From Gammaproteobacteria bacterium (lineage in GTDB: Bacteria > Pseudomonadota > Gammaproteobacteria > Poriferisulfidales > Poriferisulfidaceae), in the NCBI GenBank assembly GCA_028819565.1, contig JAPPLD010000020.1:32099-96098 (forward strand): 64,000 bases of DNA. The letters are read 5' to 3'. Position numbers and translations under genes: made by a program. Position 1 is the stretch's first letter, and each line of letters begins with the position of its first letter. Positions 13,955-44,895 of the stretch are shown here, in pieces. Below the pieces are notes generated by a model that was not told the origin of the DNA, searched no databases, and saw nothing but the letters and a program-made list of their open reading frames with translations.

Positions 13955-13955
13955 C

Positions 13956-18357: not shown

Positions 18358-18385
18358 CGGAATAGGGGAACGGGCGGTTCCAGAA

Positions 18386-19822: not shown

Positions 19823-19906
19823 GAGGCTAGGAGCAGTGGAAAAATCCCATTTTAAACCAAGTATTCCCGCATCTTGCGGCGTGAAGCGACCTGCGGGACA
19901 GCCCAG

Positions 19907-23022: not shown

Positions 23023-23191
23023 GTCGGGTCATTCACCTTTTGTTCAGGGAAAAACCAGAGAATCTGGCATTTCGTACAGCCATTGTACTGGATGTTTTTC
23101 CATCAGCCAACTGGTCGGCTGAAATATTTGTGATAGATTAGCCTCAAAAGAGTCGTGTCCCCACGATTGTCAGAATTACTTAGGAGGAGCC

Positions 23192-24334: not shown

Positions 24335-24363
24335 GAGGTCTGAAAACCCTAACCATATAAAAG

Positions 24364-24396
24364 AACGCCCCCTTTCGAGGGGGCGTTTCTTTTTTG
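24364..24396 (+). terminator. rho-independent terminator after the AlkB-like gene
   Basis: AACGCCCCC-TTTCGA-GGGGGCGTT hairpin followed by TCTTTTTT. Confidence 0.7.
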
Positions 24397-24423
24397 AGGC
24401 AAGCCCTCCGTACAATAAGGGTC

Positions 24424-25122: not shown

Positions 25123-25141
25123 TTCCAACCGGTACGGGGTC

Positions 25142-27523: not shown

Positions 27524-27701
27524 CGGAAAAAGTGCCGGTGGCCCCTGTGGTTCGAGGGCCTGCCTAATCCGACCGTTCCTCTATTGCCGATGCTTTCGAG
27601 TCCGCCGTAGGTCCTCGGCTCTCACTTGACACGACTGTCGCGCCGTGGACAATTCCTGCTATGTCGTCGCCGGATTAATCCTGGCAAGCGAGGAGGGTGT
27701 T

Positions 27702-30119: not shown

Positions 30120-30196
30120 ACGACATCCTGCAGGCCAAGTGATACTGGAGGCACCAGTAGAATGGTTGCGAACGAGTACCGGTTTTGAAAGCGGAT

Positions 30197-32539
30197 ATGA
30201 GTCATAACACGCAGGAAGACGCAGAGTCGCACCAAAAGTTGAATCGCGGAATCCTGCGCAAGGTGGATGCCGCCGACCTCGGCGTGATCGAAATGCCGGC
30301 ATTGACGCCGCATCTTGAGTTTCGAGAGATTGGTGATGGACAGGTGCTTCTGGTCTCCGAACTGTTCAATACGCTGCTTCGCGGGTCAATCCATTCCGAT
30401 CTTCTGCCTCTTCTCGACGGTTCGCGTTCGCACCATGACATTGTGGCCGCTCTTTCCGGTACTTATTCGGAATCCAATATTCGGACGGCATTGGCAGCCC
30501 TTGCCTCAAGAGGCTATGTCGTCTCGGGTGATTATGCCTTGGAGCGAGAATCGGCGGCGTTCTGGTCTTCGTTGGGCGCTTCTCCCCGGTGGGCCGAAAA
30601 ACGCTTGGCAGCCTCGAAAATTTCGATGACCGGTGACGAGGGCAATATTGCCCGTCGGCTTGATGCCGCGGGCGTGACCATAGATGCGGATGGCCCGACC
30701 CTCTCCGTGGTGGTGTGCAAGGACTACCTTGAGCAGATGCATGAGGACATAAACCGGCGCCACATTGAGTCCGGCGTGCCGTGGATGCTGGTCAGGCCGA
30801 AGGGCATCCACCCTTTGTTCGGGCCGATTTTCCGGCCGGCGGAGCAGGGGCCGTGCTGGGCCTGTCTCGCCTATCGTCTTCGCGGCCACCAGGAAGTGCA
30901 CAATTTCCTGCGAAATTTCGCTGGTGCAGATGCCGCGTTTCTTCCTGGTGCCGCTGACCCCACCGTTCTGGATGCGATATACGGCCTTGCCGCGACTGAA
31001 ATCGCGAAATGGCTGGTTTTGGAAGAAATGGCGCCACTTCATGCACAGGCAATCTCGATCGATACCATTCGCCTGAAAAGCGAACACCATCAGGTTATGC
31101 GTCGCCCGCAGTGCTTCACATGTGGCGATGAGAGGCTGTACCGCGCTGACCGGCCACCGGAGCCGGTGCGGCTGAAGCCAAGCCCGAAAGACATCTGCAA
31201 CAGTGGTGGCGTGCGCTCAGTACCTCCAGAAAAGACTCTGGCCAAGTATCAGCGCCTGATCAGCCCCGTCAGCGGGGTCGTGTCGTGGGTTGCGCGTACT
31301 ACGGAGGAGACGGACCCATGGCTGCATGTCTATTGGGCGGGGAGCAATTTCGCACTGAGAAGCAGCGAACTGAATTCGTTGCGGCGGAGCCTGCGTAGCA
31401 AGAGCGCGGGCAAGGGAAGCACGCCGCGGCAGTCTGAAGCAAGTGCGCTTTGTGAGGCGATAGAACGCTACTCCGGGGCCTTTCATGGCGATGAGATTCG
31501 TTGTCGAAGACGTCTTGCGGATTTTCTCAAAGCCGGAGAATCCGAGGCGATCCATCCAAATGACGTTCAACTGTTCAGCGACCAGCAATTGAATAATGCC
31601 GAGCAACTCAATGCGCGCGGTCATCCTTACAATTTTGTCCCGGCGCGGTTCGACCCAGATGCAGAGGTGGATTGGTCGCCTGTGTGGTCGCTTACGCAGG
31701 GTCGGCATCGATACCTGCCGACATCTATGCTCTATGGAATGCTCGATGAACAACGAGGGAATTCAGGTCTCAAGGCGGATTCGAATGGCTGTGCTGCGGG
31801 CAACACGCTTGAGGAAGCCATCCTGCAAGGGTTCTTGGAATTGATCGAACGTGATGCTTTCGCTGTTTGGTGGTACAACCGACTTCGCTTGCCTGGAGTG
31901 GACCTGGAAAGCTTTGGAGACGATTATCTTGCATCCGCGCAGAATTACTACGGCGGTTTCAATCGTGAAATGTGGGTGTTGGATGTCACCCATGATTTCG
32001 GCATACCTACTTTTGTTGCCGTCTCGCGCCGGACTGACGAGGGAGAGGAAGACATTATCTACGGGGCCGGGGCGCACCTGGACCCACACATTGCAGCCTT
32101 ACGTGCGGTGTGCGAACTGAACCAGTTTTTGAACTGGGCCCAAGGGTCGGAGCGGGGGGGGTGCGGCCATGATGTTGACGAGCCATTGTGCCGATGGTGG
32201 TGGAAGAACGGGAAACTCGGGGATCATCCCTACTTGATGCCAGCGTCTGACGTCTCGTTACGCGGCAAGTCTGATTACCCCATCCCTGACACTGCGGATG
32301 TCAGAGAGGATGTGGAGCGATGCCGTGCACTGGTCGAAGCCAAAGGCTTGGAGTTCTTGGTTCTGGATCAGACGCGGCCAGACATCGGCATGCCGGTTGC
32401 AAGGGTCATCGTGCCCGGCTTGCGCCATTTCTGGGAACGTTTCGCGCCTGGGCGCCTGTTTGACGTGCCGGTCGAAATGGAATGGCGCGAAAGTCCTGTT
32501 GAGGAAACGGATCTCAATCCCATCCCGGTCATCGCCTGA
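30197..32539 (+). CDS. PatD/TruD-like azoline-forming cyclodehydratase (fused E1-like/RRE N-terminus plus YcaO domain)
   Basis: ORF 30185..32539 (TTG), with the likely start at ATG 30197. YcaO hallmark motifs GKGSTPRQSEASALCEAIERYSG and GCAAGNTLEEAILQGFLELIERDAFAVWWYN. About 780 aa, matching fused heterocyclases of cyanobactin/TOMM pathways. C-terminal PxPxP-like tail. Confidence 0.8.
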   Translation: MSHNTQEDAESHQKLNRGILRKVDAADLGVIEMPALTPHLEFREIGDGQVLLVSELFNTLLRGSIHSDLLPLLDGSRSHHDIVAALSGTYSESNIRTALAALASRGYVVSGDYALERESAAFWSSLGASPRWAEKRLAASKISMTGDEGNIARRLDAAGVTIDADGPTLSVVVCKDYLEQMHEDINRRHIESGVPWMLVRPKGIHPLFGPIFRPAEQGPCWACLAYRLRGHQEVHNFLRNFAGADAAFLPGAADPTVLDAIYGLAATEIAKWLVLEEMAPLHAQAISIDTIRLKSEHHQVMRRPQCFTCGDERLYRADRPPEPVRLKPSPKDICNSGGVRSVPPEKTLAKYQRLISPVSGVVSWVARTTEETDPWLHVYWAGSNFALRSSELNSLRRSLRSKSAGKGSTPRQSEASALCEAIERYSGAFHGDEIRCRRRLADFLKAGESEAIHPNDVQLFSDQQLNNAEQLNARGHPYNFVPARFDPDAEVDWSPVWSLTQGRHRYLPTSMLYGMLDEQRGNSGLKADSNGCAAGNTLEEAILQGFLELIERDAFAVWWYNRLRLPGVDLESFGDDYLASAQNYYGGFNREMWVLDVTHDFGIPTFVAVSRRTDEGEEDIIYGAGAHLDPHIAALRAVCELNQFLNWAQGSERGGCGHDVDEPLCRWWWKNGKLGDHPYLMPASDVSLRGKSDYPIPDTADVREDVERCRALVEAKGLEFLVLDQTRPDIGMPVARVIVPGLRHFWERFAPGRLFDVPVEMEWRESPVEETDLNPIPVIA

Positions 32540-32590: not shown

Positions 32591-33475
32591 CTATTCTTCG
32601 GACTTCTGGCCTGGCTTTGTGCCGGACAAGAAGTGGTAAGTGAACGCGCCTGCCTGCAGGCCTTTGTCAAAGTCGAGGGCGGCCCCCATGAATTCATGGT
32701 AGGCCAGATCCGGTCCCGGAGGAGGAGGGGTCAGAAATCCGAACCATGACCAGAATTTTCGGGTCATTTCTGTAGATGGGGCCACCTCTGCTGACAGATT
32801 TTTTTCCTGCACTTCGCGGAATCCCGCTTTTTCCAGGGCCACGCGCGCGTCGGACCACGTCACCAATGGGGGCATGCGAAAGCCCCACTGCATACTGGCG
32901 TGAACAGCCTCATGGGCTTCGGACAGGGGAACTCCGCTCAGCAAGCCTTCCAAAGCCTGCCAGCGACCGCCTGGCCTCAGAATTCGGTAGACACCCTGTA
33001 AGTAGGCATGTTTGTCGGGTGCGTAGCAGAATGATTCATGGTTCAACACTGCATCGAAACAAGCGTCGGGAAAGGGCATATCCATGAAATCGCCATGGTG
33101 GAACTCAACCAAGCCGCCGACTCCGCGCTGTTCCGCGAGTTCTGTCGCAACCGCGACATGGGATTCGCAATTAGTCAAACCGATGGCTTGGACTTTGTAC
33201 GTTTCCGCCAACCAGATCACCATTCCCCCGACGCCGCAGCCGGAGTCGAGGATCCGTTGCCCCGGCTTGAGATTGCATTCCTGTGTCAACGTCTGATTGG
33301 CGCGCAGTAGGGATTCGTAGTGGGATTTCGTGTCCGACCCCCAAAGCCCGAAATGGCAGGTAAGGAGGTCGCCTCCGCCGTATTTCACAATGGGGTCTGT
33401 CAACGCTTCATAATGAGCAGGAACAGAAGTTTCTTGTTCTTGGTCGCTTTTCGGAATTTGTTGCGGATTCGTCAT
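32591..33475 (-). CDS. class I SAM-dependent methyltransferase
   Basis: 294 aa. SAM-binding motif I RILDSGCGVGG, plus the acidic residue after beta-2 and motif post-I. Convergent with the cyclodehydratase gene. Confidence 0.75.
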   Translation of the reverse strand: MTNPQQIPKSDQEQETSVPAHYEALTDPIVKYGGGDLLTCHFGLWGSDTKSHYESLLRANQTLTQECNLKPGQRILDSGCGVGGMVIWLAETYKVQAIGLTNCESHVAVATELAEQRGVGGLVEFHHGDFMDMPFPDACFDAVLNHESFCYAPDKHAYLQGVYRILRPGGRWQALEGLLSGVPLSEAHEAVHASMQWGFRMPPLVTWSDARVALEKAGFREVQEKNLSAEVAPSTEMTRKFWSWFGFLTPPPPGPDLAYHEFMGAALDFDKGLQAGAFTYHFLSGTKPGQKSEE

Positions 33476-34596: not shown

Positions 34597-35706
34597 GTGA
34601 GTCTCGAAGAACAATGGGTCGCGACTGAAGACCGCCTTCTTCATGAAACGGAATCCCTGGGTGGGCTGCTTGGGCAATTAAGGGATCGTGTCTCTTCCGG
34701 TTTGATTGGTGACGAGGAGTGGGGGAAGATACTGGAACGTGCCCGCGGATTGCCTGTCACAATGGGTGCTTTTCCTTTCGGCTTCGAATTGCTCATGCAC
34801 GAATCACGGCCGGGGGCGGATTTCGGCGCGTCGCTGGTCGGGGGAAGCCAATCGGCGGCGTTCTTTGAGAAAAGGAGTAAAACGAAAGATGCGGACCCGG
34901 CTACTGCTGGAGTGGCTTGGTTGCTAAAGGAAACGGAACCAGAGAGCGCCCCCCTCCGACGCATCGCTGGCCGAAAGATGCTGCTCGAATATGATGTCGA
35001 TCAAATACCGTCTGGAGAATTTCCGGATCCCGGCATTTTTCTGTATCCTGCCGATCAGGTGTTGGCTGGCGATGGTTCCGATCAGCGCCTTCATGAACTA
35101 AGGATCGTGGCCGACGCGGTGGCTTCTGCGACGAACCGCAGGTTGAACGAAGCTGAGCACCGACAGATAGACCAGGTATTCTTGGCGATGAACCCGAATA
35201 CGAGTGTTCGGGCCGTTGGCGCTTTCCCGTCGCGAGCAAGGGAAATTCGATTGACGGCGACGGGATTCAGGAAGGCGGATGAGGTCGGGGAATTCCTGAA
35301 ACGCACGAACTGGCCTGGACAGCATTCTGCTGTGACTTCCACCGTGTCGCACTTGGAAGAACGCGAGGCTTTCGCCTATGTTGGAATCCACTACGATGTT
35401 GCGGAAAACGGTGTAGGCCCGACGCTCGGACTGAGTTTTTTCGCCAAGGAAGGGCAGTGGCTTAAAGATGTCCGACACTGGACTCCATTGATTGACAGCA
35501 TCCGCGAGGAACAACTCGCTGTTCCAGAGAAACTGTCGGAATTGGTCGCTTGGTCGTCGGGGTCGGAACCCTTATCCGGCAAGTCCGGTTCGTTTGTGCT
35601 GGTGCGCGGCATTCACCACATCAAATTTACACTGGTCGACGACCGGGTCGAGCAGGTCAAAGCATATATTTTTCTTCTTTTACTGGCATGGCCGTTGACC
35701 GGTTGA
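34597..35706 (+). CDS. hypothetical protein (RiPP-cluster associated, GTG start)
   Basis: 369 aa ORF with balanced composition and no recognisable motif. Sits between the modification genes and the RND exporter. Confidence 0.4.
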   Translation: MSLEEQWVATEDRLLHETESLGGLLGQLRDRVSSGLIGDEEWGKILERARGLPVTMGAFPFGFELLMHESRPGADFGASLVGGSQSAAFFEKRSKTKDADPATAGVAWLLKETEPESAPLRRIAGRKMLLEYDVDQIPSGEFPDPGIFLYPADQVLAGDGSDQRLHELRIVADAVASATNRRLNEAEHRQIDQVFLAMNPNTSVRAVGAFPSRAREIRLTATGFRKADEVGEFLKRTNWPGQHSAVTSTVSHLEEREAFAYVGIHYDVAENGVGPTLGLSFFAKEGQWLKDVRHWTPLIDSIREEQLAVPEKLSELVAWSSGSEPLSGKSGSFVLVRGIHHIKFTLVDDRVEQVKAYIFLLLLAWPLTG

Positions 35707-35755: not shown

Positions 35756-38098
35756 TTACGCCGGAATTGTTTTGCGCGATTTGGTGCGCTGGCCCAAAGT
35801 TATCAGCAAGGAGGGCAGCAGCAGCAGATCGGCAATCAGCGCGAGCACGATGATCAACGCGGTAAGCAATCCCACCTGGACAGTCGGGATGAATGGAGAA
35901 AGGACCAGGATTAGGAAACCTGCCGCCAGCACGGTCGACGTCGTGAACAATGCCCGCCCGACTGCCTGGAAAGCGTAACGCACCGCATCCTCGGCCGTAG
36001 AGTTGTACTCACGGCGTGCCCGGCAGTATTTGCTGAGAAAGTGCACCGAGTCATCCACCACAATTCCGATGGTCATCGCCATAACGACCGACAGCACAAG
36101 CCCGACTTCTCCTACTGCCAGTCCCCAGATTCCAAATCCCATTGCGCCGGGAACGAGATTTGGCACGAGGCTTACGAGACCAAGCCGTAGTGAGCGAAGG
36201 GCGGCGATGAGGAGCATGGAAATGCCGAAAAGCGCGAGCGTCGTTCCGAGCAACATGGCCTTGATGTTGCGTAGCCCGATGTGTGCGAACATTAATGCGG
36301 CTCCTGCGCCTTCGGCTTGAGTGAAGTGGGGCGCATGGTCGTCCAGCCATGCCGCGGCACGCTCGTTCAGTTCCACGACCTCCCGCGAAGAGAGCGTTCT
36401 CGTCGTCACCGTCATGCGGGTGGCTGACCTGGAAACATCAATCTGGTTATTGAGGTCGAGGCCAAGAGGGAGCGAGAGTTCATAAAGGAGCAAGTATTGC
36501 GAGGCGAGGTCGCGGCTGGCGGGTAGCCGATAGGCGGCAGGGTCGTCTCCGTGCATGCTCTTGTTGAGTTGCTGGAAAGTGTCGCTAAGTACCGTGACGT
36601 GACGTGTTTCCGGTTGTACGCGATACCAGGCGGCGAAAGCTGCGAGATTTTCGAGAAAGGCAGGTTCGGAGATCCCGCCCGGCCCAGATGAGACCACCGA
36701 ATATTCAAGCACGGTGTTTCCGCTGAGATGCTCATCCATAAAATCTATATCTCGACGAAACTCCACGCTCTCATCGAAGAAATACACCAAAACATCATTC
36801 AGCTCATTGCGGGGGATGGCTGCGACCAGCATCAGGACCACTGCGACCGAACCCCACAGCAAATGCTTCCGGTGACGCACCACAAATTCCGCAATGACTG
36901 CCATAACCGGATCGGCGTCCTGTCGGATTCTTGGCGCACGGACCGGAAGGAGTGAAAGCAGGGCGGGCAGAAACGTCACCGTGAGCACAAACGAAGCGCC
37001 GACCCCAAATGCGACGAACATTCCGAGGTGACGGTATGGAGGGACTTCAGAGAAATTCATGCTCAGGAACCCAAGTGCCGTCGTTAGGCTCGCGAGGAAG
37101 ACCGGATACAGGTTGATGTTGAGGGATTCGACAATCGCGACGTGTTTCGAGTCTCCAGCCCGCAAGCGTTGCAACAAAGTGACCAGCAGGTGTATGCAAC
37201 TGGCAACAGCGATCATCAGCACGATAGTGGGTGCCGGAGCGGTCGGTGGCGTGAACGGAAGGCCAACCCAGCCCCCCAGCCCCATTGCCACGAGAACCGA
37301 AAAGATGATGATCAAGCCCGTTGCCACGACTCCCGTAAATCCCCGGATCAGGATGCCGAGCGTCAATGCCATGATGGCCAGGCTCGCGGGCAGGAAAGTT
37401 TTCTGGCCGTCTATCGTTGCCCTTGAGAGGGTGTCGTTGATTATCACTGTGCCAACCAGACGGAGATCAATGCCGGGAAAATTTTCTTCCGCTTCGACAG
37501 CAAGGTCATGCGCGAATTTGGCAACTTCGGAGACCTCGGCCGATTCGTCTTCTTCAGAAAGTTTTATGGTGACGCTGACCGCACTCACGCCTCCATCCCG
37601 GGCCACGAGATTCCCAACGAGTCGGGGTTCGGCCAATGCCGTTTCGCGGATCCAGGATCGTTCTTGGACATTATCCAGCTGCAGCGGATTCACGAGATTG
37701 CGCACAACCAAATCGTCGCCGTCGGCGGCGGTATGCTGGAAGTTTGCAATTGAATCGACTCGTGTCGAATACGGTGTTTGCCAGGCGCGGTCGGTAAGCC
37801 AGACTATGGCCGCGAGAGATTGCTCTGATGCGAAATCACGATTTTCCGGAACCACCAGGAAGACGACGTTGTCGTTTTTCCCGTAGGTATTTTCTAGTGC
37901 TTCAAACGCCAAGAGTTGAGGATTGTCCTCATCGAAGAACATACGATAACTTGTAGAGGTCTGAAGAAACATGCTGCCGCTAGCGGCGAGCATGACCAGG
38001 ACCAAAGAGATGATGATGATCGGCCAGCGGGTCGCGATCACCCACTCCCCGAATCGCATTCCAAAAGATTTGGGAGTGCGGGGAGGCTTGCTCGTCAT
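35756..38098 (-). CDS. RND-superfamily exporter (MMPL/HpnN-like, two 6-TM bundles)
   Basis: 780 aa. Two hydrophobic blocks, each after a large periplasmic loop, typical of the COG1033 predicted exporters. Directly downstream, on the same strand, of the NHLP precursor gene. Confidence 0.75.
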   Translation of the reverse strand: MTSKPPRTPKSFGMRFGEWVIATRWPIIIISLVLVMLAASGSMFLQTSTSYRMFFDEDNPQLLAFEALENTYGKNDNVVFLVVPENRDFASEQSLAAIVWLTDRAWQTPYSTRVDSIANFQHTAADGDDLVVRNLVNPLQLDNVQERSWIRETALAEPRLVGNLVARDGGVSAVSVTIKLSEEDESAEVSEVAKFAHDLAVEAEENFPGIDLRLVGTVIINDTLSRATIDGQKTFLPASLAIMALTLGILIRGFTGVVATGLIIIFSVLVAMGLGGWVGLPFTPPTAPAPTIVLMIAVASCIHLLVTLLQRLRAGDSKHVAIVESLNINLYPVFLASLTTALGFLSMNFSEVPPYRHLGMFVAFGVGASFVLTVTFLPALLSLLPVRAPRIRQDADPVMAVIAEFVVRHRKHLLWGSVAVVLMLVAAIPRNELNDVLVYFFDESVEFRRDIDFMDEHLSGNTVLEYSVVSSGPGGISEPAFLENLAAFAAWYRVQPETRHVTVLSDTFQQLNKSMHGDDPAAYRLPASRDLASQYLLLYELSLPLGLDLNNQIDVSRSATRMTVTTRTLSSREVVELNERAAAWLDDHAPHFTQAEGAGAALMFAHIGLRNIKAMLLGTTLALFGISMLLIAALRSLRLGLVSLVPNLVPGAMGFGIWGLAVGEVGLVLSVVMAMTIGIVVDDSVHFLSKYCRARREYNSTAEDAVRYAFQAVGRALFTTSTVLAAGFLILVLSPFIPTVQVGLLTALIIVLALIADLLLLPSLLITLGQRTKSRKTIPA

Positions 38099-38270
38099 CT
38101 ACGCAAACCCTCTCCCTAGGAAGTTTCCTAGAATTTTTCCGTCAAGACATGACGGAGGAGAAACAACTGACTCCTGGCGAGAATGTGTTATGCGTGTTCT
38201 GCGCCAGAAGTCATCTTGTTTCTGGAAATGCTTCTAACTCGACTTGCCAGTTAAGAGAGGCAAGGGTTCG

Positions 38271-38546
38271 TTAGGTACAGCAGCAAAGACCCGCAGCAAT
38301 TGTCTCAAGTTGCTCTTCATCCAGGTCCGGACCTGCCGGCAGGGCAAGATGGAGCGTGGTCATGCTGCTTTCATGTACTACGATTTCAAAGCCTTCCGGA
38401 ACCTCAACGCCGAATTCTTCCGCGATGACGCCTTTAGGGTCGGCTAGCAACCGTTGACGAAAACCAGTGTCTTCACACGCTTTATCCGTCAGGTGCTGAC
38501 GCATTTCCTCGGCCCGTTGCTGGGCCGTTTCGACAAATTCTCCCAT
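38271..38546 (-). CDS. RiPP precursor peptide with nitrile-hydratase-like leader peptide (NHLP family), AG cleavage motif and 5-residue core LCCCT
   Basis: 91 aa with RBS GAGGAGG seven nt before the ATG. Leader LLADPKGVIAEEFGVEVPEGFEIVVHESSMTTLHLALPAGPDLDEEQLETIAAG matches the NHLP consensus (LLANP..AL.EEGIE.PEG.EVKVVEDT..TLHLVLP.....LSDEELE.VAGG). The ORF ends ...IAAG-LCCCT-stop. Confidence 0.8.
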   Translation of the reverse strand: MGEFVETAQQRAEEMRQHLTDKACEDTGFRQRLLADPKGVIAEEFGVEVPEGFEIVVHESSMTTLHLALPAGPDLDEEQLETIAAGLCCCT

Positions 38547-38828
38547 AATTCCTCCTCGCTTAGGTGGGTAATTTGAATACTCATAATGTATTCTTTTTCA
38601 GAGATTTGTCAAGCCCCAGTTGCGCATGTGCAGGCTTTCAGGACTTTACCTTGCGCGCTGATTTTCAGCGGACTTTCGAGGGTTTTTCACTAAGTAAAGT
38701 ATTCTGAAAAAGCTTTGTGCCATACCCGTCAAAATGGCAGAGCAATAACAATTTTCACAACATGCCGTTCTTCCCTAGCAGACAGACGATGACTTTTGAT
38801 AATGGTGTGTCAGTTGTGGCTATAATGA
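38547..38828. promoter_or_regulatory. AT-rich divergent promoter region between the precursor gene and the HlyD/ABC export genes
   Basis: ~280 bp at ~40% GC. Contains inverted repeat GAATAC-N7-GTATTC (38575..38593) ~30 nt upstream of the precursor start, and a TATAAT box at ~38818 on the plus strand. Confidence 0.35.
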
Positions 38829-39737
38829 ATGACCCTATATGGACAAGCATTGATGTTCAATAGTCTGTTTTTTGATGATGCTGCGGCCAGCAGGAACAAA
38901 CGCCATCAACTCGGCTATTTATTAAGGGTAGCGGCTCCTCACGAGCGCGTCATCCTGGCTGGCATCGGTGCGGTTTTGTTGGCGCTCCTCGTTTGGATAT
39001 TATTCGGCAGTGTTGTACGCAGCGTTACGGTCGACGGAGTCCTGCTGAAGCCAGGAATCCGCCATGAGGTTGTCTCGACCGAGCCGGGCCATTTGATGAA
39101 GTTTTTGGTGACCCTTGGAGACCAGATTGAAAAGGGGGGGGCGATTGCCCGTCAGACCGTACCGGAATTGGAGCGCGAGATTACCGCTTTACGTGACCAG
39201 ATTGAGATTCTGGAGGCGGGGGTGCGGCAGGTTGGTGGTGACGGCACGAACTCATTTCTAATCTCGGCCCAAGAAGCATTGCTGCAAATGGAAGCCCGGC
39301 GTATTGCGAAAGAAGTCATCGCCAGCCACATGAATGGCGAAATCATGGTTTTGGATGCTGCCCCGGGAGACTACTTGCCTGCTGGATCAGTTGTTGCCCA
39401 GCTTCGCGATCCGGAGGACAAGCCACTCCAAGCGGTGCTGCTAGTCGCTCCGCGTATGGCAAAACGTCTCCGTGCTGGCATGCAGACATCGGTCGAGGTT
39501 GTAATGTCGGACGGGGCAGTGCGTGAAGTGGATGGAGAAATTGTCGCTGTAACCTCTGGGCCGTTTCCGAATTGGCTTGCGGCGTTTCAGTCGGAGAGCG
39601 TGGATTACGCCTATCGCGTCGACATTACCCTTGACTCTGAATCGAAACTCGCTGTGCCGGACGGCACGCCATGCCACGTACGCATCTTGCTTGGTCGGCA
39701 TTCGCCTATCGCGCTGCTTAGCCTAGAGCAAATTTGA
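38829..39737 (+). CDS. HlyD-family secretion adaptor (NHLM bacteriocin-system secretion protein type)
   Basis: 302 aa. N-terminal TM helix LAGIGAVLLALLVWILFG. Coiled-coil region PELEREITALRDQIEILEAG. C-terminal beta-barrel-type region. Immediately upstream of a C39-peptidase ABC transporter. Confidence 0.7.
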   Translation: MTLYGQALMFNSLFFDDAAASRNKRHQLGYLLRVAAPHERVILAGIGAVLLALLVWILFGSVVRSVTVDGVLLKPGIRHEVVSTEPGHLMKFLVTLGDQIEKGGAIARQTVPELEREITALRDQIEILEAGVRQVGGDGTNSFLISAQEALLQMEARRIAKEVIASHMNGEIMVLDAAPGDYLPAGSVVAQLRDPEDKPLQAVLLVAPRMAKRLRAGMQTSVEVVMSDGAVREVDGEIVAVTSGPFPNWLAAFQSESVDYAYRVDITLDSESKLAVPDGTPCHVRILLGRHSPIALLSLEQI

Positions 39738-39749: not shown

Positions 39750-41972
39750 ATGCCTTCTTCCAACCCGAAAGAACCGACTAAACCCGGTAAGTTGCAAATA
39801 AAAGAACGCGAAAAGCGGCGTGTGACTACTCCGCTTCTGCTGCAGATGCACATGACCGAATGCTCTGCCGCATGTTTGGGTAGCGTACTTGCCTATTTCG
39901 GGCGCTGGGTGCCACTGGCCGAATTGCGCGACAGATGTGAGATCAGTCGGGATGGTTCTACAGCTGCCGGCATCAAGCGTGCGGCCCAACACTATGGCCT
40001 CGAATGTTCCGGATGGTTCGGAAAAATTAGCCAGATCAAGCAACGGCCACTCCCGATGATCTTATTCTGGGAATTCAACCACTTTCTGATCCTGGAAGGC
40101 TATGACCGCGATTGGTTCTATCTCAACGACCCAGCCACCGGACGCCGAAATCTCTCAAGGAAGGAATTTGAAAGCGGCTTTACAGGAGTGGCTCTGCAGT
40201 TCGAACCTGGACCGGAATTCCAGCCCGGAGGCGTTCGTCCTAGCGTCTTGGAACGTATCCTGCCCTGGTTGCAAGGCACTTGGGGTGGATTGGCTTATGC
40301 GGTTGGATGCGGGCTATTGCTGGCCGTCCTGGCCCTCGCTACACCTGCATTACTGATCATATTCGTGGATCAAGTATTGGGCAAAAGTGAGCCTTGGGGA
40401 GGGATTGTGGCCGGTGCCATGGCAAGCGCGGCCGTTCTCATCTACGGGTTGACTTGGTTGAAACGGAGATGTTTGCGGCGTTTGGCTGCCCGCATCTCGA
40501 TAGTTGCTTGGGATCAATGTCTGACTCGGCTACTGCAGTTGCCAATCGACTTCTTCCATCATCGGTTAGCGGGAGAACTGACAGCCCGCGTCCTGTCTGT
40601 CGACAAGATTGCCAAGGCTCTTTCGAATCACTTCATCAGCCTGTTGATCGAACTCGGAATGAGCATAGTGTTTTTGTTCGCCATGCTGGCGTACGAGCCG
40701 ACGTTAGCGCTAATCGTCTTGGGCTTGGCCGTACTTAATGCCGTTTTGATGCGCCTGATCTCACGTATTCGCGCCGATGCGAGCCATACCCTGCAGAGAG
40801 AGCAAAGCCTGTTACTGGGCATCGGAACGATGATGCTGCATCACACGGATACATTGCGGGTGACTGCTGCGGATGATCGCTTCTTTTCCCGCTGGAGCGG
40901 CCATCAAGCTCGAGAGATAGAAGCGCGCCAGTGCTTTTCCGAGTGGAGCCATGTTAATTCGGCTTTGCCGGGCCTGTTCTTGATCTTGGGGAGTGTGGCT
41001 GTATTGGCGATTGGCGCAACAGAGGTTATGGCTGGTGAAATGACACTCGGCATGTTGGTGGGATTTTATGTTGTGGCGGCTATGTTTTTGGAACCCGTCG
41101 GGCGTTTCGTTTCGTTTTCAGACGATCTTCAGATACTTGAGACGGATATGCAACGCTTGGAAGACATTACGAAGGCCTCGAAAGATCCTGGGTTAGCCCA
41201 GAGGCGTGATTCGTCGGATTCCATTGCCACACTGAATGGGCGGTTGCAGTTGGCTGGGCATGTAGAGCTGCGCGACATCACCTTTGGCTACAACCAGAGT
41301 CGCCCTCCCATAATCGAGAATTTTGACTTGACAATAAAACCAGGGCAGAGAGTCGCAGTGGTTGGGGCGAGCGGGTCGGGAAAATCGACACTGGCCCGCT
41401 TGATTTCCGGCCTCTACCAGCCATGGTCCGGTGAAATTCTGTTCGACGGTTATCTCAGAGATGAAGTTCCTGACGAAGTTCTATCCCGGTCTTTATCGAT
41501 GGTTGACCAGAATATTATTCTTTTTTCTGCGACAGTACGTGAGAACATCACTTTATGGAATCCTGCCATTCCAGACGATATTCTGGCTAGGGCAGCCCGC
41601 GATGCCTGCATTCACGATGAGATTCTCAGCCGGCCACATGGCTACGCGACGCAGGTCGAGGAAGACGGAGATAATTTCAGCGGCGGTCAGCGACAGCGAT
41701 TGGAAATCGCGCGCGCATTGGTCGGCAACCCGACAGTATTGATTCTTGATGAAGCAACCAGCGCGCTTGACGCGGCCACCGAGGATTTGGTCGACGATGC
41801 ACTACGCCGCCGGGGAATTAGTTGCCTAATCGTGGCGCACCGGCTGAGTACGGTTCGGGATTGCGACCAGATTATTATGCTCGAAAAGGGGAAGGCAGTA
41901 CAGCGTGGCACACACGCTGAGTTGATAACGGACAAGGACGGGACCTACTACCGGCTTGTCCAGGCTGGTTAG
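39750..41972 (+). CDS. ABC transporter with N-terminal C39 bacteriocin-processing peptidase domain (NHLM-system peptidase/ATP-binding protein type)
   Basis: 740 aa. C39 domain LLQMHMTECSAACLGSVLAYFG with the catalytic Cys. Six-TM domain. Walker A GASGSGKST, signature FSGGQRQRL, Walker B ILILDEATSALD. Confidence 0.85.
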   Translation: MPSSNPKEPTKPGKLQIKEREKRRVTTPLLLQMHMTECSAACLGSVLAYFGRWVPLAELRDRCEISRDGSTAAGIKRAAQHYGLECSGWFGKISQIKQRPLPMILFWEFNHFLILEGYDRDWFYLNDPATGRRNLSRKEFESGFTGVALQFEPGPEFQPGGVRPSVLERILPWLQGTWGGLAYAVGCGLLLAVLALATPALLIIFVDQVLGKSEPWGGIVAGAMASAAVLIYGLTWLKRRCLRRLAARISIVAWDQCLTRLLQLPIDFFHHRLAGELTARVLSVDKIAKALSNHFISLLIELGMSIVFLFAMLAYEPTLALIVLGLAVLNAVLMRLISRIRADASHTLQREQSLLLGIGTMMLHHTDTLRVTAADDRFFSRWSGHQAREIEARQCFSEWSHVNSALPGLFLILGSVAVLAIGATEVMAGEMTLGMLVGFYVVAAMFLEPVGRFVSFSDDLQILETDMQRLEDITKASKDPGLAQRRDSSDSIATLNGRLQLAGHVELRDITFGYNQSRPPIIENFDLTIKPGQRVAVVGASGSGKSTLARLISGLYQPWSGEILFDGYLRDEVPDEVLSRSLSMVDQNIILFSATVRENITLWNPAIPDDILARAARDACIHDEILSRPHGYATQVEEDGDNFSGGQRQRLEIARALVGNPTVLILDEATSALDAATEDLVDDALRRRGISCLIVAHRLSTVRDCDQIIMLEKGKAVQRGTHAELITDKDGTYYRLVQAG

Positions 41973-44895
41973 TCCCATGGCGTCTCCGGAATCCCACTCA
42001 CTTGCCAGTTTGGCGGTTCGATCAGGATCTTTGGTGCCCTGCGCCGGAAACCTACCGATAGACCTGGACGACCCGCAAAGCATCTGGTTCATCGAGAAAG
42101 GTGCGGTTGATTTGTTTCTAGTCGAGCGTCAGGGCGGAGTGGATCAGGCATCCCCGCAACACCTGTTTCGTGCCCACTCCGGACGTCTTCTGCCGGGTGT
42201 GGTTCCGCAGGAAGGGGACACGACTTTCGGCTTGGCTGCGAAAGGATTGCCGGACACGGTTTTGTGGCGTCTTTCGATTGCAGACTTGAGTGTGGTTCCG
42301 AATGCGGAATTGGCAGAGCATGTCGATGCATGGATCGCGGATGTTTCTACTGAACTGTCCCGGGATGCAGGACAGCGGCCACGGCCGGACACGCCTGTCG
42401 AGCCCGGCAAGATTTTTCCAGAAGTGGGCGGCACACTTTCGTCCCGGCAGGGCGTGGTGTGGGTATCGCAACTGTCTTCAGGAGCGGGATTGTTTCTGGG
42501 GCTAATCGATCCGGTCGAGGGCGATTTGTATGGTGAGCCCGCCAGTGGCACCGTACCGCTCACGCCTGCGACTTGGCTGACCTTGATGGAAAAAACGAAG
42601 ATTTCCATTCGATCCTCGGAAAATTTTGCCAAAGAGGGGCTTCTTCTGTCTGCCTTAGCGAATTTCCACGTGACAGCGTTTTCTCATGAGCGGCTCAACC
42701 GCAATCTGGCGGTTGCTGATCAGGCGAATTTGGAGCGGGATCGCGTGACTAGTCGCCGCAGCGACGAAGAGCATGCCCGACACCGCCTGTTCAATCTCTA
42801 CGATCTTCCGGATGAAGAAAAGGCCGATGTGGACGGTACAGCATTGCATGAGGTGTTGAAAGTTATAGGGGAACATGAAGGTATTGATTTCAAATGGCCC
42901 GCAAAATCGGGCATTGTTGATTCGGCTCCTACCCTCGGCGACGTCTTGGATGCATCTGGAGTGCGCGGTCGGCAGGTGCGGCTAACTTGGGAAGAACGGT
43001 GGTGGATTGGAGACAGCGGTGCGATGTTGGCGTTTCGGGAAGCCGATGGACAGCCTGTGGCATTGCTGCCGGGTATGCTCGGGCATTATCAGGAAACGGA
43101 GATAGTCGGACAACGCGGCACTCGAGTGACCCCCGAACGTGCGAAGGCGCTCGATCCTGATGCCTGGGTTTTCTACCAGCCGCTGTCGTCGGGCAAGGTC
43201 GGATGGCGAGACTTGTACCGCCTTGTTCGCAAAGGTCTAGTTGCTGATTTTTTACGCTTTGCGACAGCCGGGCTGCTTGGTGGCTTGGTCATACTGGTGC
43301 CTGCCGTAGTGGTCGGTTTCGTCGTGGATAAAGTCATTCCAACTGGTGAGATAAGTCTGCTGTATCTGGCGACAGCAACACTGGCGGCATTCGCTTTGGT
43401 TGGGGCATTACTGCATATCCTTCAGGGCATGGCGCTCATGCGCCTCGAAGGACGTGGCGCGTCTCGACTTGAGGCTGCATTCTGGGATCGCCTGCTTCGG
43501 CTGCCTTTGAGTTTCTTGCGTCGTTACCCGGCGGGCAATCTCGCCATGCGAGGTATGACGTTTCAGGCTCTCCGCGATGCCGTGCGGGCCGTGATCGCAA
43601 ATGCAGTGCTGTCAATCATTTTCCTGTTACCCGCGTTTCTCCTGATTTCCTACTACGATGAGGTGCTGGGAACTGTTACAGCTGCTTTTGGTTTTTTGTC
43701 CTTGGTTGTAATCGTGGTATTGGGCCTGCAGCAAATCTCGCCTTATGGTCAAGTGATGCAGACCGTTCACCACATGGCGGGCCAGCTGTTTCAGTTCATC
43801 AACGGCATTTCTAAACTACGGATCGATGATGCGGAAGGGACCGCTTTCGCGGTTCTGGCGCGTGGCTACCGCGAGCAGAAACGCGCGGAATCCAAACTGG
43901 GCGCCTTGGAAGATCATCTACAGGCATTTGGAGCCGCATTGCCACTGCTAGCCGGTGCGGTGCTGTTTCTGATGATGACGCTGGGCCGGGAGGGACTCGA
44001 GATCGGAGACTTCCTTGTCATTTACCTCGTATTTATAGCGTTTCAGGCGGCGGTGGCCCGGTTGGGCGCATCGTTCAGTGCAGTCGTTGGCATCATGCTA
44101 GCATTCGATCAAATCCGCCCATTTCTATCCGAGACCCCGGAGACAAGTTTTGAGGGAGAACTTGTCGAGAGTTTGGGGGGCGAGGTCGTGTTCGACCACA
44201 TCACTTTTCGATATGATCCTGAGGGTCCCCTGATTCTCGACGATGTCACAATTCGCGCCAACCCCGGCGAGTTTGTCGCTATTGCCGGCGAGTCGGGGGC
44301 GGGCAAGAGTACGATTTTCCGAATTGCGCTTGGCTTGGACCATCCGTCTTCCGGGGCGGTGTACTACGACGGGCGCGACCTTCAGCATCTCAACCTCAAG
44401 CAAGTGCGCCGGAAGATTGGCGCAGTTCCTCAGGACCTGCAATTGCATCCAGAGGACGTATGGGACAACATCGTTGGAGACCGGGAAGGTGTGACCAGTG
44501 ATGTCGCATGGACAGCCGCCAAGGCCGCATCTGTCGACCGCGACATCATGCGGATGCCGATGGGGATGCTGACGTGCGTGGGTGGTGGTGGCCTTACGTC
44601 AGGAGGAGAAAGTCAGCGTATCGTGATTGCTCATGCGCTGATTGAGACTCCCCGAGTCATGTTGCTTGACGAGGCGACGAATTGGCTCGACAACGATAAT
44701 CAAGCCAGGGTCATGGACAATCTCGCGAGTCTACGTTCAACTCGGATTGTCATTGCCCACCGACTTTCAACGTTGCGCCAGGCAGATCGCATTTATGTCA
44801 TGCAAGCCGGGAAAGTGGTCGAAGTGGGGACCTTCGAGACATTGATGGAGGTTGGAGGGGTTTTTCAGGATCTAGTTCGCCGTCAAGTCGCCTGA
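41956..44895 (+). CDS. ABC transporter ATP-binding/permease protein with N-terminal cyclic-nucleotide-binding-like domain (NHLM-system second ABC protein type)
   Basis: 979 aa. N-terminal ~300 aa with a cNMP-binding-like fold (IWFIEKGAVDLFLVERQGG). TM domain. Walker A GESGAGKST. Degenerate signature TSGGESQRIVIA. Walker B VMLLDEATNWLD. Confidence 0.8.
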   Translation: MSRLVSPMASPESHSLASLAVRSGSLVPCAGNLPIDLDDPQSIWFIEKGAVDLFLVERQGGVDQASPQHLFRAHSGRLLPGVVPQEGDTTFGLAAKGLPDTVLWRLSIADLSVVPNAELAEHVDAWIADVSTELSRDAGQRPRPDTPVEPGKIFPEVGGTLSSRQGVVWVSQLSSGAGLFLGLIDPVEGDLYGEPASGTVPLTPATWLTLMEKTKISIRSSENFAKEGLLLSALANFHVTAFSHERLNRNLAVADQANLERDRVTSRRSDEEHARHRLFNLYDLPDEEKADVDGTALHEVLKVIGEHEGIDFKWPAKSGIVDSAPTLGDVLDASGVRGRQVRLTWEERWWIGDSGAMLAFREADGQPVALLPGMLGHYQETEIVGQRGTRVTPERAKALDPDAWVFYQPLSSGKVGWRDLYRLVRKGLVADFLRFATAGLLGGLVILVPAVVVGFVVDKVIPTGEISLLYLATATLAAFALVGALLHILQGMALMRLEGRGASRLEAAFWDRLLRLPLSFLRRYPAGNLAMRGMTFQALRDAVRAVIANAVLSIIFLLPAFLLISYYDEVLGTVTAAFGFLSLVVIVVLGLQQISPYGQVMQTVHHMAGQLFQFINGISKLRIDDAEGTAFAVLARGYREQKRAESKLGALEDHLQAFGAALPLLAGAVLFLMMTLGREGLEIGDFLVIYLVFIAFQAAVARLGASFSAVVGIMLAFDQIRPFLSETPETSFEGELVESLGGEVVFDHITFRYDPEGPLILDDVTIRANPGEFVAIAGESGAGKSTIFRIALGLDHPSSGAVYYDGRDLQHLNLKQVRRKIGAVPQDLQLHPEDVWDNIVGDREGVTSDVAWTAAKAASVDRDIMRMPMGMLTCVGGGGLTSGGESQRIVIAHALIETPRVMLLDEATNWLDNDNQARVMDNLASLRSTRIVIAHRLSTLRQADRIYVMQAGKVVEVGTFETLMEVGGVFQDLVRRQVA

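What the first reader, a model, noticed from the sequence alone, without database searches (positions are those of the whole stretch)
38271..38546. Precursor peptide with NHLP leader and an ultrashort tri-cysteine core (LCCCT)
The 91-aa ORF has a strong RBS and a leader matching the nitrile-hydratase-like leader peptide consensus over ~50 residues. It ends ...EEQLETIAAG|LCCCT-stop. If cleavage follows the AG double-glycine-type motif, as expected with the adjacent C39-ABC exporter, the mature scaffold is only five residues. Three contiguous Cys and a Thr are all potential azoline/azole sites for the YcaO enzyme, and a contiguous tri-thiazol(in)e is reminiscent of NRPS-made thiazoline metallophores. 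The next in-frame codons after the stop encode no further Cys, so the short core is not a truncation artefact of the ORF call. The precursor lies 172 bp upstream of, and co-oriented with, the RND exporter, and a small hairpin (CTTGCC-N10-GGCAAG) right after its stop could act as a partial terminator.
Basis: partly seen in the sequence, partly recalled or inferred. Interest (0 to 1): 0.85.

Follow-up and report, generated by a model that had tools for sequence, protein, structure and literature searches.

The report
Three-cysteine peptide precursor of known family
This small gene encodes a long-leader precursor whose five-residue tail (LCCCT) is predicted to become a sulfur-ring peptide; it belongs to the already published 'srp' family of marine-sponge symbionts, but in a version that carries a methylating enzyme instead of the family's brominating one.

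Summary
ORF 38271-38546 (-) encodes a 91-aa NHLP-leader peptide ending AG|LCCCT. It has its own promoter-like site and RBS, and sits among a LynD-type YcaO, an RND pump and the three-gene NHLP exporter with an intact C39 peptidase.

It is not new in kind. It is 56% identical to SrpE, the precursor of the published sponge 'srp' clusters. SrpE's core is LCCCW, its three Cys are converted to thiazolines by the YcaO SrpC, and its Trp is brominated by SrpI.

More than 339 species-level genomes carry a relative. In 82 loci examined:
- The SrpI-like halogenase occurs only with ...W cores (23/38 vs 0/44).
- A SAM methyltransferase occurs only with non-W cores (0/38 vs 32/44).

The window belongs to the methyltransferase, non-Trp branch, which no paper I could read describes.

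Both branches share three features:
- an AlkB-type hydroxylase fused to a GlnE-like domain;
- a lipid-type RND pump.

A geranylgeranyl-reductase-family gene joins in some loci, including the window. This suggests a lipidated product, which remains untested. The metallophore idea has no support from gene context.

The parts
38271..38546 (-). Precursor gene (SrpE homologue), 91 aa plus stop. Leader = residues 1-86 (38289-38546). Core LCCCT = residues 87-91 (38274-38288).
   Evidence: Translation. TIGR03793 73.1 bits against cutoff 50.9. 56% identity to SrpE, E 3e-33. Family alignment.
38274..38288 (-). Core peptide LCCCT. Cys88-90 are the predicted thiazoline sites.
   Evidence: Core LCCC conserved across the family. 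Thiazoline formation on the SrpE core LCCCW is reported in PMC10858898 and PMC10286304.
38307..38324 (-). L(X)4L recognition motif LDEEQL (residues 75-80) in the leader.
   Evidence: E77, E78, Q79 and L80 are invariant in the family. The motif is shown to be required for SrpI and for the YcaO MprC in relatives.
38551..38557 (-). Ribosome-binding site GAGGAGG, 4 nt before the ATG.
   Evidence: Sequence.
38585..38612 (-). Sigma-70-like promoter TTGACA-16-TACATT (10/12 matches).
   Evidence: This is a consensus match only.
38243..38264 (-). Stem-loop CTTGCC-N10-GGCAAG just after the stop codon, with no U-tract.
   Evidence: -13.4 kcal/mol, z = -2.8. Not called as a terminator. 27% of family precursors have a z < -2 structure downstream.
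30185..32539 (+). Fused wHTH/E1-like + YcaO cyclodehydratase (SrpC homologue, LynD/TruD/MusD type).
   Evidence: TIGR03604 276.8 bits and TIGR03882 132 bits, both above cutoff. LynD 4V1T E 1.7e-172. Present at 26/38 W-type and 33/44 non-W loci.
27645..30119 (+). AlkB-type membrane di-iron hydroxylase domain fused to a GlnE-like nucleotidyltransferase-like domain. Lies directly upstream of the YcaO gene at most loci inspected; in L015 and L017 a GGR-family gene lies between them.
   Evidence: PDB 8F6T E 1.6e-54, with motifs HELVH, EHIYVHH, NYVQHYGL and ERHADHH. GlnE Pfam and 3K7D E 5e-5. Conserved synteny.
34597..35706 (+). Conserved 'hypothetical' protein with an ABBA/PT-barrel prenyltransferase fold.
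32591..33475 (-). Class I SAM methyltransferase, the marker of the non-Trp branch.
   Evidence: Methyltransf_11 and related Pfam families. Found at 32/44 non-W loci and 0/38 W loci. PDB relatives are O- and N-methyltransferases, including LahSB.
26390..27523 (+). Geranylgeranyl-reductase-family flavoprotein (accessory cluster member).
   Evidence: TIGR02032 161.3 bits against cutoff 158.8, MenJ E 2.9e-41. PDB 3OZ2 E 6e-16. Lies inside the operon in L015 and L017 and adjacent in L013.
35756..38098 (-). RND transporter of the HAE3/HpnN/MMPL type with a sterol-sensing domain.
   Evidence: Present at 30/44 non-W and 9/38 W loci.
38829..39737 (+). HlyD-type adaptor of the NHLP export system.
   Evidence: TIGR03794 is the best hit at 82.1 bits, below its cutoff of 156.2. 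HlyD_3.
39750..41972 (+). C39 peptidase/permease/ATPase exporter, the predicted leader-cleaving enzyme.
   Evidence: TIGR03796 876.8 bits against cutoff 853.3. Peptidase domain matches LahT150 6MPZ at E 3.7e-36 with catalytic Cys and His conserved.
41956..44895 (+). Second ABC permease/ATPase subunit of the NHLP export system, with a roughly 290-aa N-terminal extension of unknown function.
   Evidence: TIGR03797 670.2 bits, just below its cutoff of 709.4. No family hit for the N-terminal part.
45023..45949 (+). TraB/PrgY/GumN-family protein. A lineage-specific neighbour whose membership in the cluster is uncertain.
   Evidence: PF01963 E 1.9e-38. Found at only 7/44 non-W loci, those inspected all from close relatives, and at 0/38 W loci.

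Best explanation
The ORF is a genuine RiPP precursor of the SrpE (sponge-derived RiPP proteusin, 'srp') family. It sits in a cluster from an uncultured gammaproteobacterium; several closest relatives carry sponge-associated names or labels.

Proposed pathway:
1. The precursor is transcribed from its own promoter (inferred).
2. The LynD-type YcaO binds the NHLP leader through the L(X)4L motif and cyclodehydrates Cys88-90 to three contiguous thiazolines. This is shown for SrpE/SrpC and inferred here by homology.
3. The LahT-like C39 domain of the ABC exporter cuts after Ala-Gly86 during export. This releases a five-residue product, Leu-thiazoline x3-Thr. The step is inferred; LahT150 does this to the LCCCW core in vitro.

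How the window differs from the published cluster: it lacks the SrpI brominase and a C-terminal Trp, and carries a SAM methyltransferase instead. Because that methyltransferase tracks the identity of the C-terminal residue, it most likely modifies the C-terminal end, for example by carboxyl methylation (inference).

Other genes conserved in both branches:
- a PT-barrel (prenyltransferase-fold) protein;
- an AlkB-type hydroxylase/GlnE-like fusion;
- an HpnN/MMPL-like RND pump;
- in some loci, including the window, a geranylgeranyl-reductase-family enzyme.

These suggest that the peptide is further lipidated and oxidised before export (inference, untested).
For: - Family membership: the NHLP HMM scores above cutoff and ends at G86. 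The peptide is 56% identical to SrpE with the same AG|LCCC boundary.
- Conservation: 120/120 listed homologues keep LCCC-type cores that stop within 0-2 residues.
- Distribution: more than 339 species-representative genomes carry a relative; all 80 kept loci are MAGs across many phyla, many with sponge-related names or isolate labels.
- Literature: SrpC makes three thiazolines on LCCCW, SrpI brominates the Trp, and LahT150 excises the modified core.
- YcaO: E 1.7e-172 to LynD.
- Peptidase: the C39 domain matches LahT150 at E 3.7e-36 with the catalytic residues present.
- Halogenase/methyltransferase split: halogenase 23/38 W vs 0/44 non-W (Fisher p 1e-10). Methyltransferase 0/38 W vs 32/44 non-W (p 4e-13). 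L070 has both precursor types and both enzymes.
- Conserved operon AlkB/GlnE-YcaO-PT-like.
- Reductase: the GGR-family HMM scores above cutoff, and the gene lies inside the operon in another phylum.
- Expression of the family: family precursors are the most highly transcribed BGC genes in sponge metatranscriptomes.
Against: - No chemistry has been done on this variant or on any non-Trp member in the papers I could read.
- The natural product of even the published srp cluster is described as cryptic.
- The prenyltransferase assignment rests on predicted fold alone. There is no sequence similarity to known prenyltransferase families, and PatF shows that this fold can be catalytically inactive.
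- The target of the methyltransferase is unknown. Its PDB relatives include both O- and N-methyltransferases.
- The census covers only +/-10 kb and the 80 genomes most similar to the window. The loci are phylogenetically non-independent, so the Fisher p-values overstate the independence of the evidence.
- The JACS 2021 paper that first described srp could not be read. It may already mention some of these genes or variants.
Confidence: 0.85

Rival explanations
1. The mature product is a small metal-binding molecule (metallophore). In this reading the three contiguous thiazolines, and a terminal carboxylate in some variants, chelate a metal, as in NRPS-made thiazoline siderophores.
For: Contiguous thiazolines are chemically plausible ligands. 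Four of the census loci end in LCCC, which would give a terminal thiazoline-4-carboxylate. This concerns function and does not exclude the srp identification.
Against: No TonB-dependent receptor, metal-uptake or metal-regulator gene lies in the cluster or elsewhere in the ORFs scanned. The conserved accessory genes point to lipid and isoprenoid chemistry instead. In this branch a methyltransferase may cap a potential ligand. No held paper reports metal binding for srp products.
Confidence: 0.1
2. The product is just the methylated tri-thiazol(in)e pentapeptide. The PT-barrel protein is non-catalytic (like PatF) or acts on another substrate. The AlkB-like enzyme acts on the peptide itself, for example oxidising thiazolines to thiazoles or hydroxylating Leu, rather than on a lipid.
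For: No SagB/McbC-type FMN dehydrogenase was found among the cluster ORFs scanned, so some other oxidase would be needed if thiazoles are made. The fold-only assignment cannot show activity. PatF is among the structural matches.
Against: The PT-like family has many invariant charged residues (E64, D75, K127, E131, D133, R213, R218, K343, K355, Y357), as expected for an active site rather than a decayed one. It is retained in both branches across many phyla. A GGR-family reductase and a lipid-type RND pump co-occur with it.
Confidence: 0.3
3. The ORF is a chance reading frame or a decayed fragment of a nitrile hydratase alpha subunit, and is not a functional gene.
For: It matches Pfam NHase_alpha (34.5 bits) and TIGR01323 weakly.
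Against: The nitrile hydratase equivalog score (32.4) is far below its cutoff (249.85), while the NHLP model is above its own. The peptide has hundreds of homologues with a conserved core and stop position. It has an RBS and a promoter-like site and conserved cluster context.
Confidence: 0.01
4. The YcaO installs thioamides or amidines on the core rather than azolines.
For: The YcaO superfamily includes thioamide-forming members. TIGR03266 is a weaker hit.
Against: The enzyme is a full-length fused E1-like/YcaO protein closest to the azoline-forming LynD, TruD and MusD. It passes the TOMM cyclodehydratase models. No TfuA was found among the ORFs scanned. The homologue SrpC was shown to make thiazolines.
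Confidence: 0.02

Closest known systems
srp (sponge-derived RiPP proteusin) clusters: SrpE precursor, SrpC YcaO, SrpI brominase (Nguyen et al., JACS 2021; PMC10286304; PMC10858898)
   Same: NHLP leader 56% identical to SrpE, with the same L(X)4L motif and the same AG|LCCC boundary. Five-residue core with three contiguous Cys. LynD-type YcaO about 60% identical to those beside LCCCW precursors. Same AlkB/GlnE, PT-like, RND and ABC genes. Closest relatives are uncultured-bacterium MAGs, several with sponge-associated names.
   Different: The last core residue is Thr, not Trp. There is no SrpI-like halogenase. A SAM methyltransferase, never found with LCCCW cores, is present, as is a full-length HlyD adaptor. 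No chemistry is known for this branch.
mpr cluster of a methanotroph: MprE1-10 precursors, MprC YcaO, MprD FMN oxidase (PMC12455567; cited in PMC10286304)
   Same: An NHLP leader with an L(X)4L motif directs an RRE-containing YcaO to make azolines. MprC/MprD can even process an LCCCW core.
   Different: The Mpr cores are longer and varied, and an FMN-dependent azoline oxidase is present. No such oxidase was found among the window's cluster ORFs.
Cyanobactin pathways: LynD/TruD/MusD heterocyclases with F-type ABBA prenyltransferases (PagF, PatF, LimF, PirF). Muscoride is a short linear prenylated example (this last point is from my own knowledge).
   Same: The YcaO is closest to LynD, TruD and MusD. 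The cluster also has a PT-barrel protein that structurally matches PatF, PagF, LimF and PirF among others. The product would be a very short azoline peptide.
NHLP/Nif11 three-gene export system (TIGR03794, TIGR03796, TIGR03797; Haft, Basu and Mitchell, BMC Biol 2010)
   Same: HlyD adaptor, C39-ABC and a second ABC subunit lie next to an NHLP precursor. TIGR03796 scores above cutoff.
   Different: TIGR03794 and TIGR03797 score below their curated cutoffs. An additional RND pump is present.
NRPS thiazoline metallophores such as yersiniabactin and pyochelin (own knowledge)
   Same: Contiguous or multiple thiazoline rings.
   Different: This product is ribosomal, and the cluster has no salicylate cap and no uptake genes. 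The resemblance is chemical only and was not tested here.

Membership tests
NHLP leader peptide family (TIGR03793) | Match to the curated HMM above its trusted cutoff | tested here: met
   73.1 bits against cutoff 50.9, E 1.2e-20, model positions 3-77 of 77.
NHLP leader peptide family (TIGR03793) | Gly-Gly-type cleavage motif at the leader end and an adjacent C39-ABC export system | tested here: met
   The leader ends AAG. TIGR03796 scores 876.8 bits against cutoff 853.3. The C39 domain is LahT150-like with catalytic Cys and His.
srp / SrpE family | Leader homologous to SrpE, with the L(X)4L motif | tested here: met
   56% identity, E 3e-33, to the SrpE sequence from PMC10858898 Supplementary Table 1. 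LDEEQL at residues 75-80.
srp / SrpE family | Ultrashort core with three contiguous Cys directly after AG | tested here: met
   The core is LCCCT. The family core is LCCC(x).
srp / SrpE family | Co-located SrpC-type YcaO cyclodehydratase | tested here: met
   30185-32539. It is about 60% identical to the YcaOs beside LCCCW precursors and 70-77% identical to those of non-W loci.
srp / SrpE family | C-terminal Trp and an SrpI-type flavin-dependent brominase (the published definition: 'LCCCW core and bromination of the terminal tryptophan') | tested here: not met
   The core ends in Thr. There is no tblastn hit to the halogenase in the 64-kb window, and none at any of 44 non-W loci.
srp / SrpE family | Thiazoline formation on the three Cys | not testable with these tools
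   Shown for SrpE/SrpC in the literature. Only inferred here.
[quoted passage not shown] | YcaO cyclodehydratase with an E1-like/RRE partner | tested here: met
   TIGR03604 276.8 bits and TIGR03882 132 bits, both above cutoff.
[quoted passage not shown] | SagB/McbC-type FMN dehydrogenase for azole formation | tested here: not met
   No nitroreductase or SagB-type domain among the ORFs scanned between 23 and 47 kb. Small ORFs were not scanned exhaustively.
Cyanobactins | PatE-like precursor with PatA/PatG subtilisin-like proteases | tested here: not met
   The leader is NHLP and no subtilisin-like protease domain is present in the cluster.
ABBA (PT-barrel) prenyltransferases (for the 369-aa protein) | Barrel of five alpha-alpha-beta-beta repeats | tested here: met
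ABBA (PT-barrel) prenyltransferases (for the 369-aa protein) | Sequence membership in a known prenyltransferase family | tested here: not met
   No Pfam or NCBIfam hit for the window protein. None of the 36 aligned family members hits a prenyltransferase family at E <= 1.
ABBA (PT-barrel) prenyltransferases (for the 369-aa protein) | Prenyl diphosphate binding and prenyl transfer | not testable with these tools
   Invariant Lys, Arg, Tyr, Asp and Glu residues exist in the family, but I did not map them onto the model's barrel.

The most novel reading that the evidence does not exclude
The srp-family clusters, including this methyltransferase branch, do not stop at a bare tri-thiazoline pentapeptide. 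Instead they would make an isoprenoid-lipidated RiPP. In this reading:
- the sequence-orphan PT-barrel protein is a new subfamily of peptide prenyltransferase;
- the GGR-family enzyme saturates the prenyl chain, and the AlkB-type hydroxylase oxidises it;
- the methyltransferase (or, in the Trp branch, the brominase) finishes the C-terminus;
- the HpnN/MMPL-like RND pump exports the lipopeptide.

This would define the still-cryptic product of one of the most widespread and most highly transcribed gene clusters of sponge microbiomes.
Probability: 0.3. Interest if true: 0.75.

Novelty: new variant of a known kind. Interest (0 to 1): 0.45.

Why it matters
- Open question in the field: the srp clusters are reported as ubiquitous across sponge symbionts of many phyla, and their precursors as the most highly transcribed BGC genes in sponges. 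Their natural product and ecological role are still unknown.
- A second branch: this window shows that the published Trp/brominase form is one of two mutually exclusive branches. The other, with non-Trp cores plus a methyltransferase, made up about half of the 82 loci examined. That sample was ranked by similarity to this window, so it is not an unbiased estimate.
- A concrete hypothesis: the conserved 'hypothetical' gene of both branches gets a testable assignment as a prenyltransferase fold. Together with the AlkB-type, GGR-type and lipid-pump genes, this gives a specific idea (a lipidated tri-thiazoline peptide) for a product that has resisted identification.
- For the scan itself: the main lesson is that the 'ultrashort tri-cysteine NHLP core' is a rediscovery, not a new class.

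Tried and rejected
- The original srp paper (PMC8780398) is not held. I therefore could not check its gene annotations or whether it mentions non-Trp variants.
- A full-text search for the variant cores (LCCCGI, LCCCL, LCCCT and others) found nothing relevant.
- The 369-aa protein gave no sequence-level identification in Pfam, NCBIfam or PDB. Scanning 36 family members against Pfam at E <= 1 gave only noise, with DsrD best at E 0.009. Only the fold search was informative.
- Rfam over 26-46.5 kb at E <= 0.1 gave no hit, so it does not explain the 1.1-kb gap at 33476-34596.
- ORFs 33547-33927 and 34020-34463 in that gap have no Pfam hits and no homologue at any related locus. I rejected them as genes.
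- The hairpin is not a canonical terminator, having no U-tract and not being called by the scan. A downstream structure is only moderately enriched in the family: median z -1.07, 27% below -2, using mononucleotide shuffles.
- I looked for metal-uptake context for the metallophore idea across the window and found none.
- My first census script used a wrong regular expression for the leader end and misclassified every locus. I corrected it.
Full report
**1. Observation**

The 276-nt ORF at 38271-38546 lies on the minus strand. It encodes MGEFVETAQQRAEEMRQHLTDKACEDTGFRQRLLADPKGVIAEEFGVEVPEGFEIVVHESSMTTLHLALPAGPDLDEEQLETIAAGLCCCT.

- A GAGGAGG ribosome-binding site lies 4 nt before the ATG.
- A sigma-70-like TTGACA-16-TACATT site (10 of 12 matches) lies at 38612-38585.
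- The curated NHLP leader model TIGR03793 scores 73.1 bits against a cutoff of 50.9. Its last position aligns to Gly86, so the leader/core boundary falls at AG|LCCCT.
- The weak nitrile hydratase hits are far below their cutoffs.
- After the stop there is a CTTGCC-N10-GGCAAG stem-loop (-13.4 kcal/mol, z = -2.8). It has no U-tract and is not called as a terminator.
- The RND gene starts 172 bp downstream on the same strand.

**2. The short core is real and conserved**

- A search of the large protein collection found 223 relatives. All 120 listed end in AG/GG followed by LCCC, or the variants LSCC, LCGC or MCCC, plus 0-2 further residues.
- In a 27-sequence alignment, F29, R30, P37, the EEQL of the L(X)4L motif, G86, C89 and C90 are invariant.
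- Position 5 is hypervariable even among leaders at least 77% identical to the window's (T, I, L or nothing). Thr91 is therefore unlikely to be a conserved modification site.
- The identical gene is called in several independent assemblies. One is a 1.85-Mb contig.

**3. It belongs to a published family**

- The literature describes 'sponge-derived RiPP proteusin' (srp) clusters. The precursor SrpE has the core LCCCW, the YcaO SrpC converts the three Cys to thiazolines, and the flavin-dependent SrpI brominates the C-terminal Trp (PMC10858898, PMC10286304).
- LahT150, a double-glycine C39 protease, excises the modified LCCCW core in vitro.
- I took the SrpE leader sequence from Supplementary Table 1 of PMC10858898. 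The text extraction appears to have dropped one residue. The window peptide is 56% identical to it (E 3e-33), with the same boundary.
- Sponge metatranscriptomes show that the family's precursor genes are by far the most highly transcribed genes of these clusters (bioRxiv 2023.06.09.544420).
- The central claim of the finding, an NHLP precursor with an ultrashort tri-Cys core processed by a YcaO, is thus already known. For a homologue it has been shown experimentally.

**4. Distribution and provenance**

- All 80 loci kept are MAGs. Several carry sponge-associated names or labels, such as Ca. Porisulfidus ('lac_sponge') and Ca. Poriferihabitaceae. They also include Ca. Rariloculus, Ca. Foliamicus, Gemmatimonadota, Nitrospirales, Binatia, Vicinamibacterales, Alphaproteobacteria and Chloroflexota.
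- The window's 369-aa protein is 100% identical to a hypothetical protein of an NCBI Gammaproteobacteria MAG.
- The cluster recurs in the assemblies ROBB21-1_SAMN13943213 and SRR10996925/6.
- The closest species-level relatives are the Ca. Porisulfidus/Chromatiales MAGs L005-L007, whose ABC exporter is 95-96% identical.

**5. Anatomy of the cluster**

| Coordinates | Strand | Product | Key evidence |
|---|---|---|---|
| 26390-27523 | + | Geranylgeranyl-reductase-family flavoprotein | TIGR02032 161.3 bits vs cutoff 158.8; MenJ E 2.9e-41 |
| 27645-30119 | + | AlkB-type di-iron hydroxylase fused to GlnE-like domain | PDB 8F6T E 1.6e-54; His motifs HELVH, EHIYVHH, NYVQHYGL, ERHADHH; 3K7D E 5e-5 |
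| 30185-32539 | + | Fused wHTH/E1-like/YcaO cyclodehydratase | LynD E 1.7e-172; also TruD and MusD |
| 32591-33475 | - | Class I SAM methyltransferase | |
| 34597-35706 | + | 369-aa protein with no sequence annotation | |
| 35756-38098 | - | HAE3/HpnN/MMPL-like RND pump with sterol-sensing domain | |
| 38271-38546 | - | Precursor | |
| 38829-39737 | + | HlyD adaptor | |
| 39750-41972 | + | C39-ABC exporter | |
| 41956-44895 | + | Second ABC subunit | |

- The exporter's peptidase domain is most similar to LahT150 (6MPZ, E 3.7e-36) and keeps the catalytic Cys and His.
- No SagB-type azoline dehydrogenase, TfuA, subtilisin-like protease or halogenase was found among the ORFs scanned.

**6. Two mutually exclusive branches**

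I ran tblastn with the window's proteins, plus the halogenase from a Gemmatimonadota locus, against 82 non-redundant loci.

| Gene | Loci with ...W cores (38) | Loci with non-W cores (44) | Fisher p |
|---|---|---|---|
| SrpI-like halogenase | 23 | 0 | 1e-10 |
| Methyltransferase | 0 | 32 | 4e-13 |

- The non-W cores were LCCC, LCCCL/V/T/I/F, LCCCG(I/V), LSCCx, RCCC, WCCCGx, LRCCI and LYCCV.
- One further locus, L070, has both an LCCCW and a WCCCGN precursor. It also has both enzymes.
- Both branches share the AlkB/GlnE-YcaO-369-aa operon, the RND pump and the ABC exporters.
- Both branches occur in several phyla.
- Caveats: flanks are only 10 kb, several contigs are truncated, the loci are the 80 most similar to the window, and related genomes are not independent. 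The direction of the result is clear, but the p-values are optimistic.
- No held paper mentions the non-Trp cores or a methyltransferase in srp clusters. The original JACS paper could not be read.

**7. The conserved 'hypothetical' protein**

- It has 277 relatives. None of the 120 listed has a Pfam domain or an informative name.
- It has no sequence similarity to PDB entries or to prenyltransferase Pfam families.
- An AlphaFold2 model built from a 36-sequence alignment is very confident (pLDDT 92.9, pTM 0.91). It consists of five alpha-alpha-beta-beta repeats.
- The Foldseek top 50 PDB matches are all ABBA prenyltransferases. They include IptA, EpzP, PriB, DMATS, LimF and PirF.
- The family has many invariant charged residues: E64, D75, K127, E131, D133, R213, R218, K343, K355 and Y357.
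- The fold assignment is solid. Catalytic activity and substrate are inferred.

**8. How it most likely works**

- Shown in homologues and inferred here: the YcaO recognises the leader's LDEEQL motif and makes three thiazolines. The C39-ABC exporter cuts after Gly86 and exports the five-residue product.
- Inferred from covariation: the methyltransferase acts at or near the C-terminus, plausibly as carboxyl methylation. It tracks the identity of the C-terminal residue, whereas the N-terminal Leu is common to both branches. Its PDB relatives include the lanthipeptide C-terminal methyltransferase LahSB (E 3.7e-11), but also N-methyltransferases, so this is not settled.
- Inferred from gene content: the peptide is lipidated. 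Four things point this way:
  - the PT-barrel protein;
  - a GGR-family reductase, which sits inside the operon in two Vicinamibacterales loci (L015, L017) and next to it in L013 and the window;
  - an AlkB-type alkyl hydroxylase;
  - a hopanoid/lipid-type RND pump.
  
  I put this at about 0.3.
- The alternative is that the AlkB-type enzyme oxidises the peptide itself, for example thiazoline to thiazole given the missing SagB-type enzyme, and that the PT-like protein is inactive like PatF.
- The metallophore idea remains chemically conceivable but has no contextual support.

**9. Verdict**

- The locus is a new variant (non-Trp core, methyltransferase instead of brominase) of a known and partly characterised RiPP family.
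- Interest is moderate. The surprising element was published in 2021. The second branch and the prenyltransferase-fold assignment do give testable handles on a widespread cluster whose product is still cryptic.

Noticed in passing
window 27645-30119 (+): An AlkB-type alkane-monooxygenase domain is fused to a GlnE-like nucleotidyltransferase-like domain. This is the position where the solved AlkB 8F6T carries its rubredoxin partner (from my own knowledge, not checked here). The NTase D-x-D motif is canonical in a few family members (L064 DID, L058 DLD) but degenerate in the window's clade (ELR), so the domain may be non-catalytic here.
   Followed up: partly
window 34597-35706 (+): The 'hypothetical protein' conserved in srp-type clusters has a confident ABBA/PT-barrel prenyltransferase fold, with no detectable sequence similarity to known prenyltransferase families.
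   Followed up: yes
window 26390-27523 (+); L015 14584-15708; L017 14708-15832; L013 19281-20264: A geranylgeranyl-reductase-family flavoprotein lies next to the cluster in the window. In two Vicinamibacterales loci it lies inside the operon, between the AlkB/GlnE gene and the YcaO. Many other loci are cut at this boundary, so its true frequency is unknown.
   Followed up: partly
window 33476-34596: A 1.1-kb stretch between the methyltransferase and the PT-like gene has no convincing ORF, no Rfam hit and no conservation at related loci. In the long-read assembly of the same organism (L089) an IS110-family transposase is inserted in this gap, and an rve-family integrase sits between the precursor and the HlyD gene.
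   Followed up: partly
L070 (Alphaproteobacteria MAG JAJDZX010000079.1): One locus carries two precursors, LCCCW and WCCCGN, together with both the halogenase and the methyltransferase. L031 also has two precursors (RCCC and LCCCI).
   Followed up: no
L008 (Ca. Porisulfidus chromosome OZ220480.1): An LCCCL precursor sits next to a TraB/PrgY-family gene with none of the biosynthetic genes within 10 kb. A PT-like homologue (P0125) comes from a contig of the same length (2,018,984 bp), which suggests a split cluster.
   Followed up: no
L003, L004, L057, L065, L068, L080 (Gemmatimonadota); other W-type loci: Trp-type clusters have a roughly 190-aa protein in place of the roughly 300-aa HlyD adaptor. 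In Gemmatimonadota, MacB/FtsX-type ABC genes lie directly after the precursor, and no YcaO was seen within 10 kb at several of these loci.
   Followed up: no
window 41956-42840 (+): The second ABC subunit has a roughly 290-aa N-terminal extension that is outside the TIGR03797 model and has no NCBIfam hit.
   Followed up: partly
window 13346-14864 (+): An AbiEi/AbiEii type IV toxin-antitoxin pair.
   Followed up: no
window 22066-26233: A MerR-family regulator, a second FA_desaturase-family protein only about 26% identical to the cluster's AlkB-like domain, and a DinB/Pol IV-type polymerase lie just upstream of the cluster. Any relation to it is unknown.
   Followed up: no
window 1984-3531, 4334-5431, 8869-9819, 9851-11641, 11643-12695, 18254-19855: Six long ORFs (316-596 aa) have no Pfam hit at E <= 1e-4. 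I did not examine them further, and some may not be genes.
   Followed up: no
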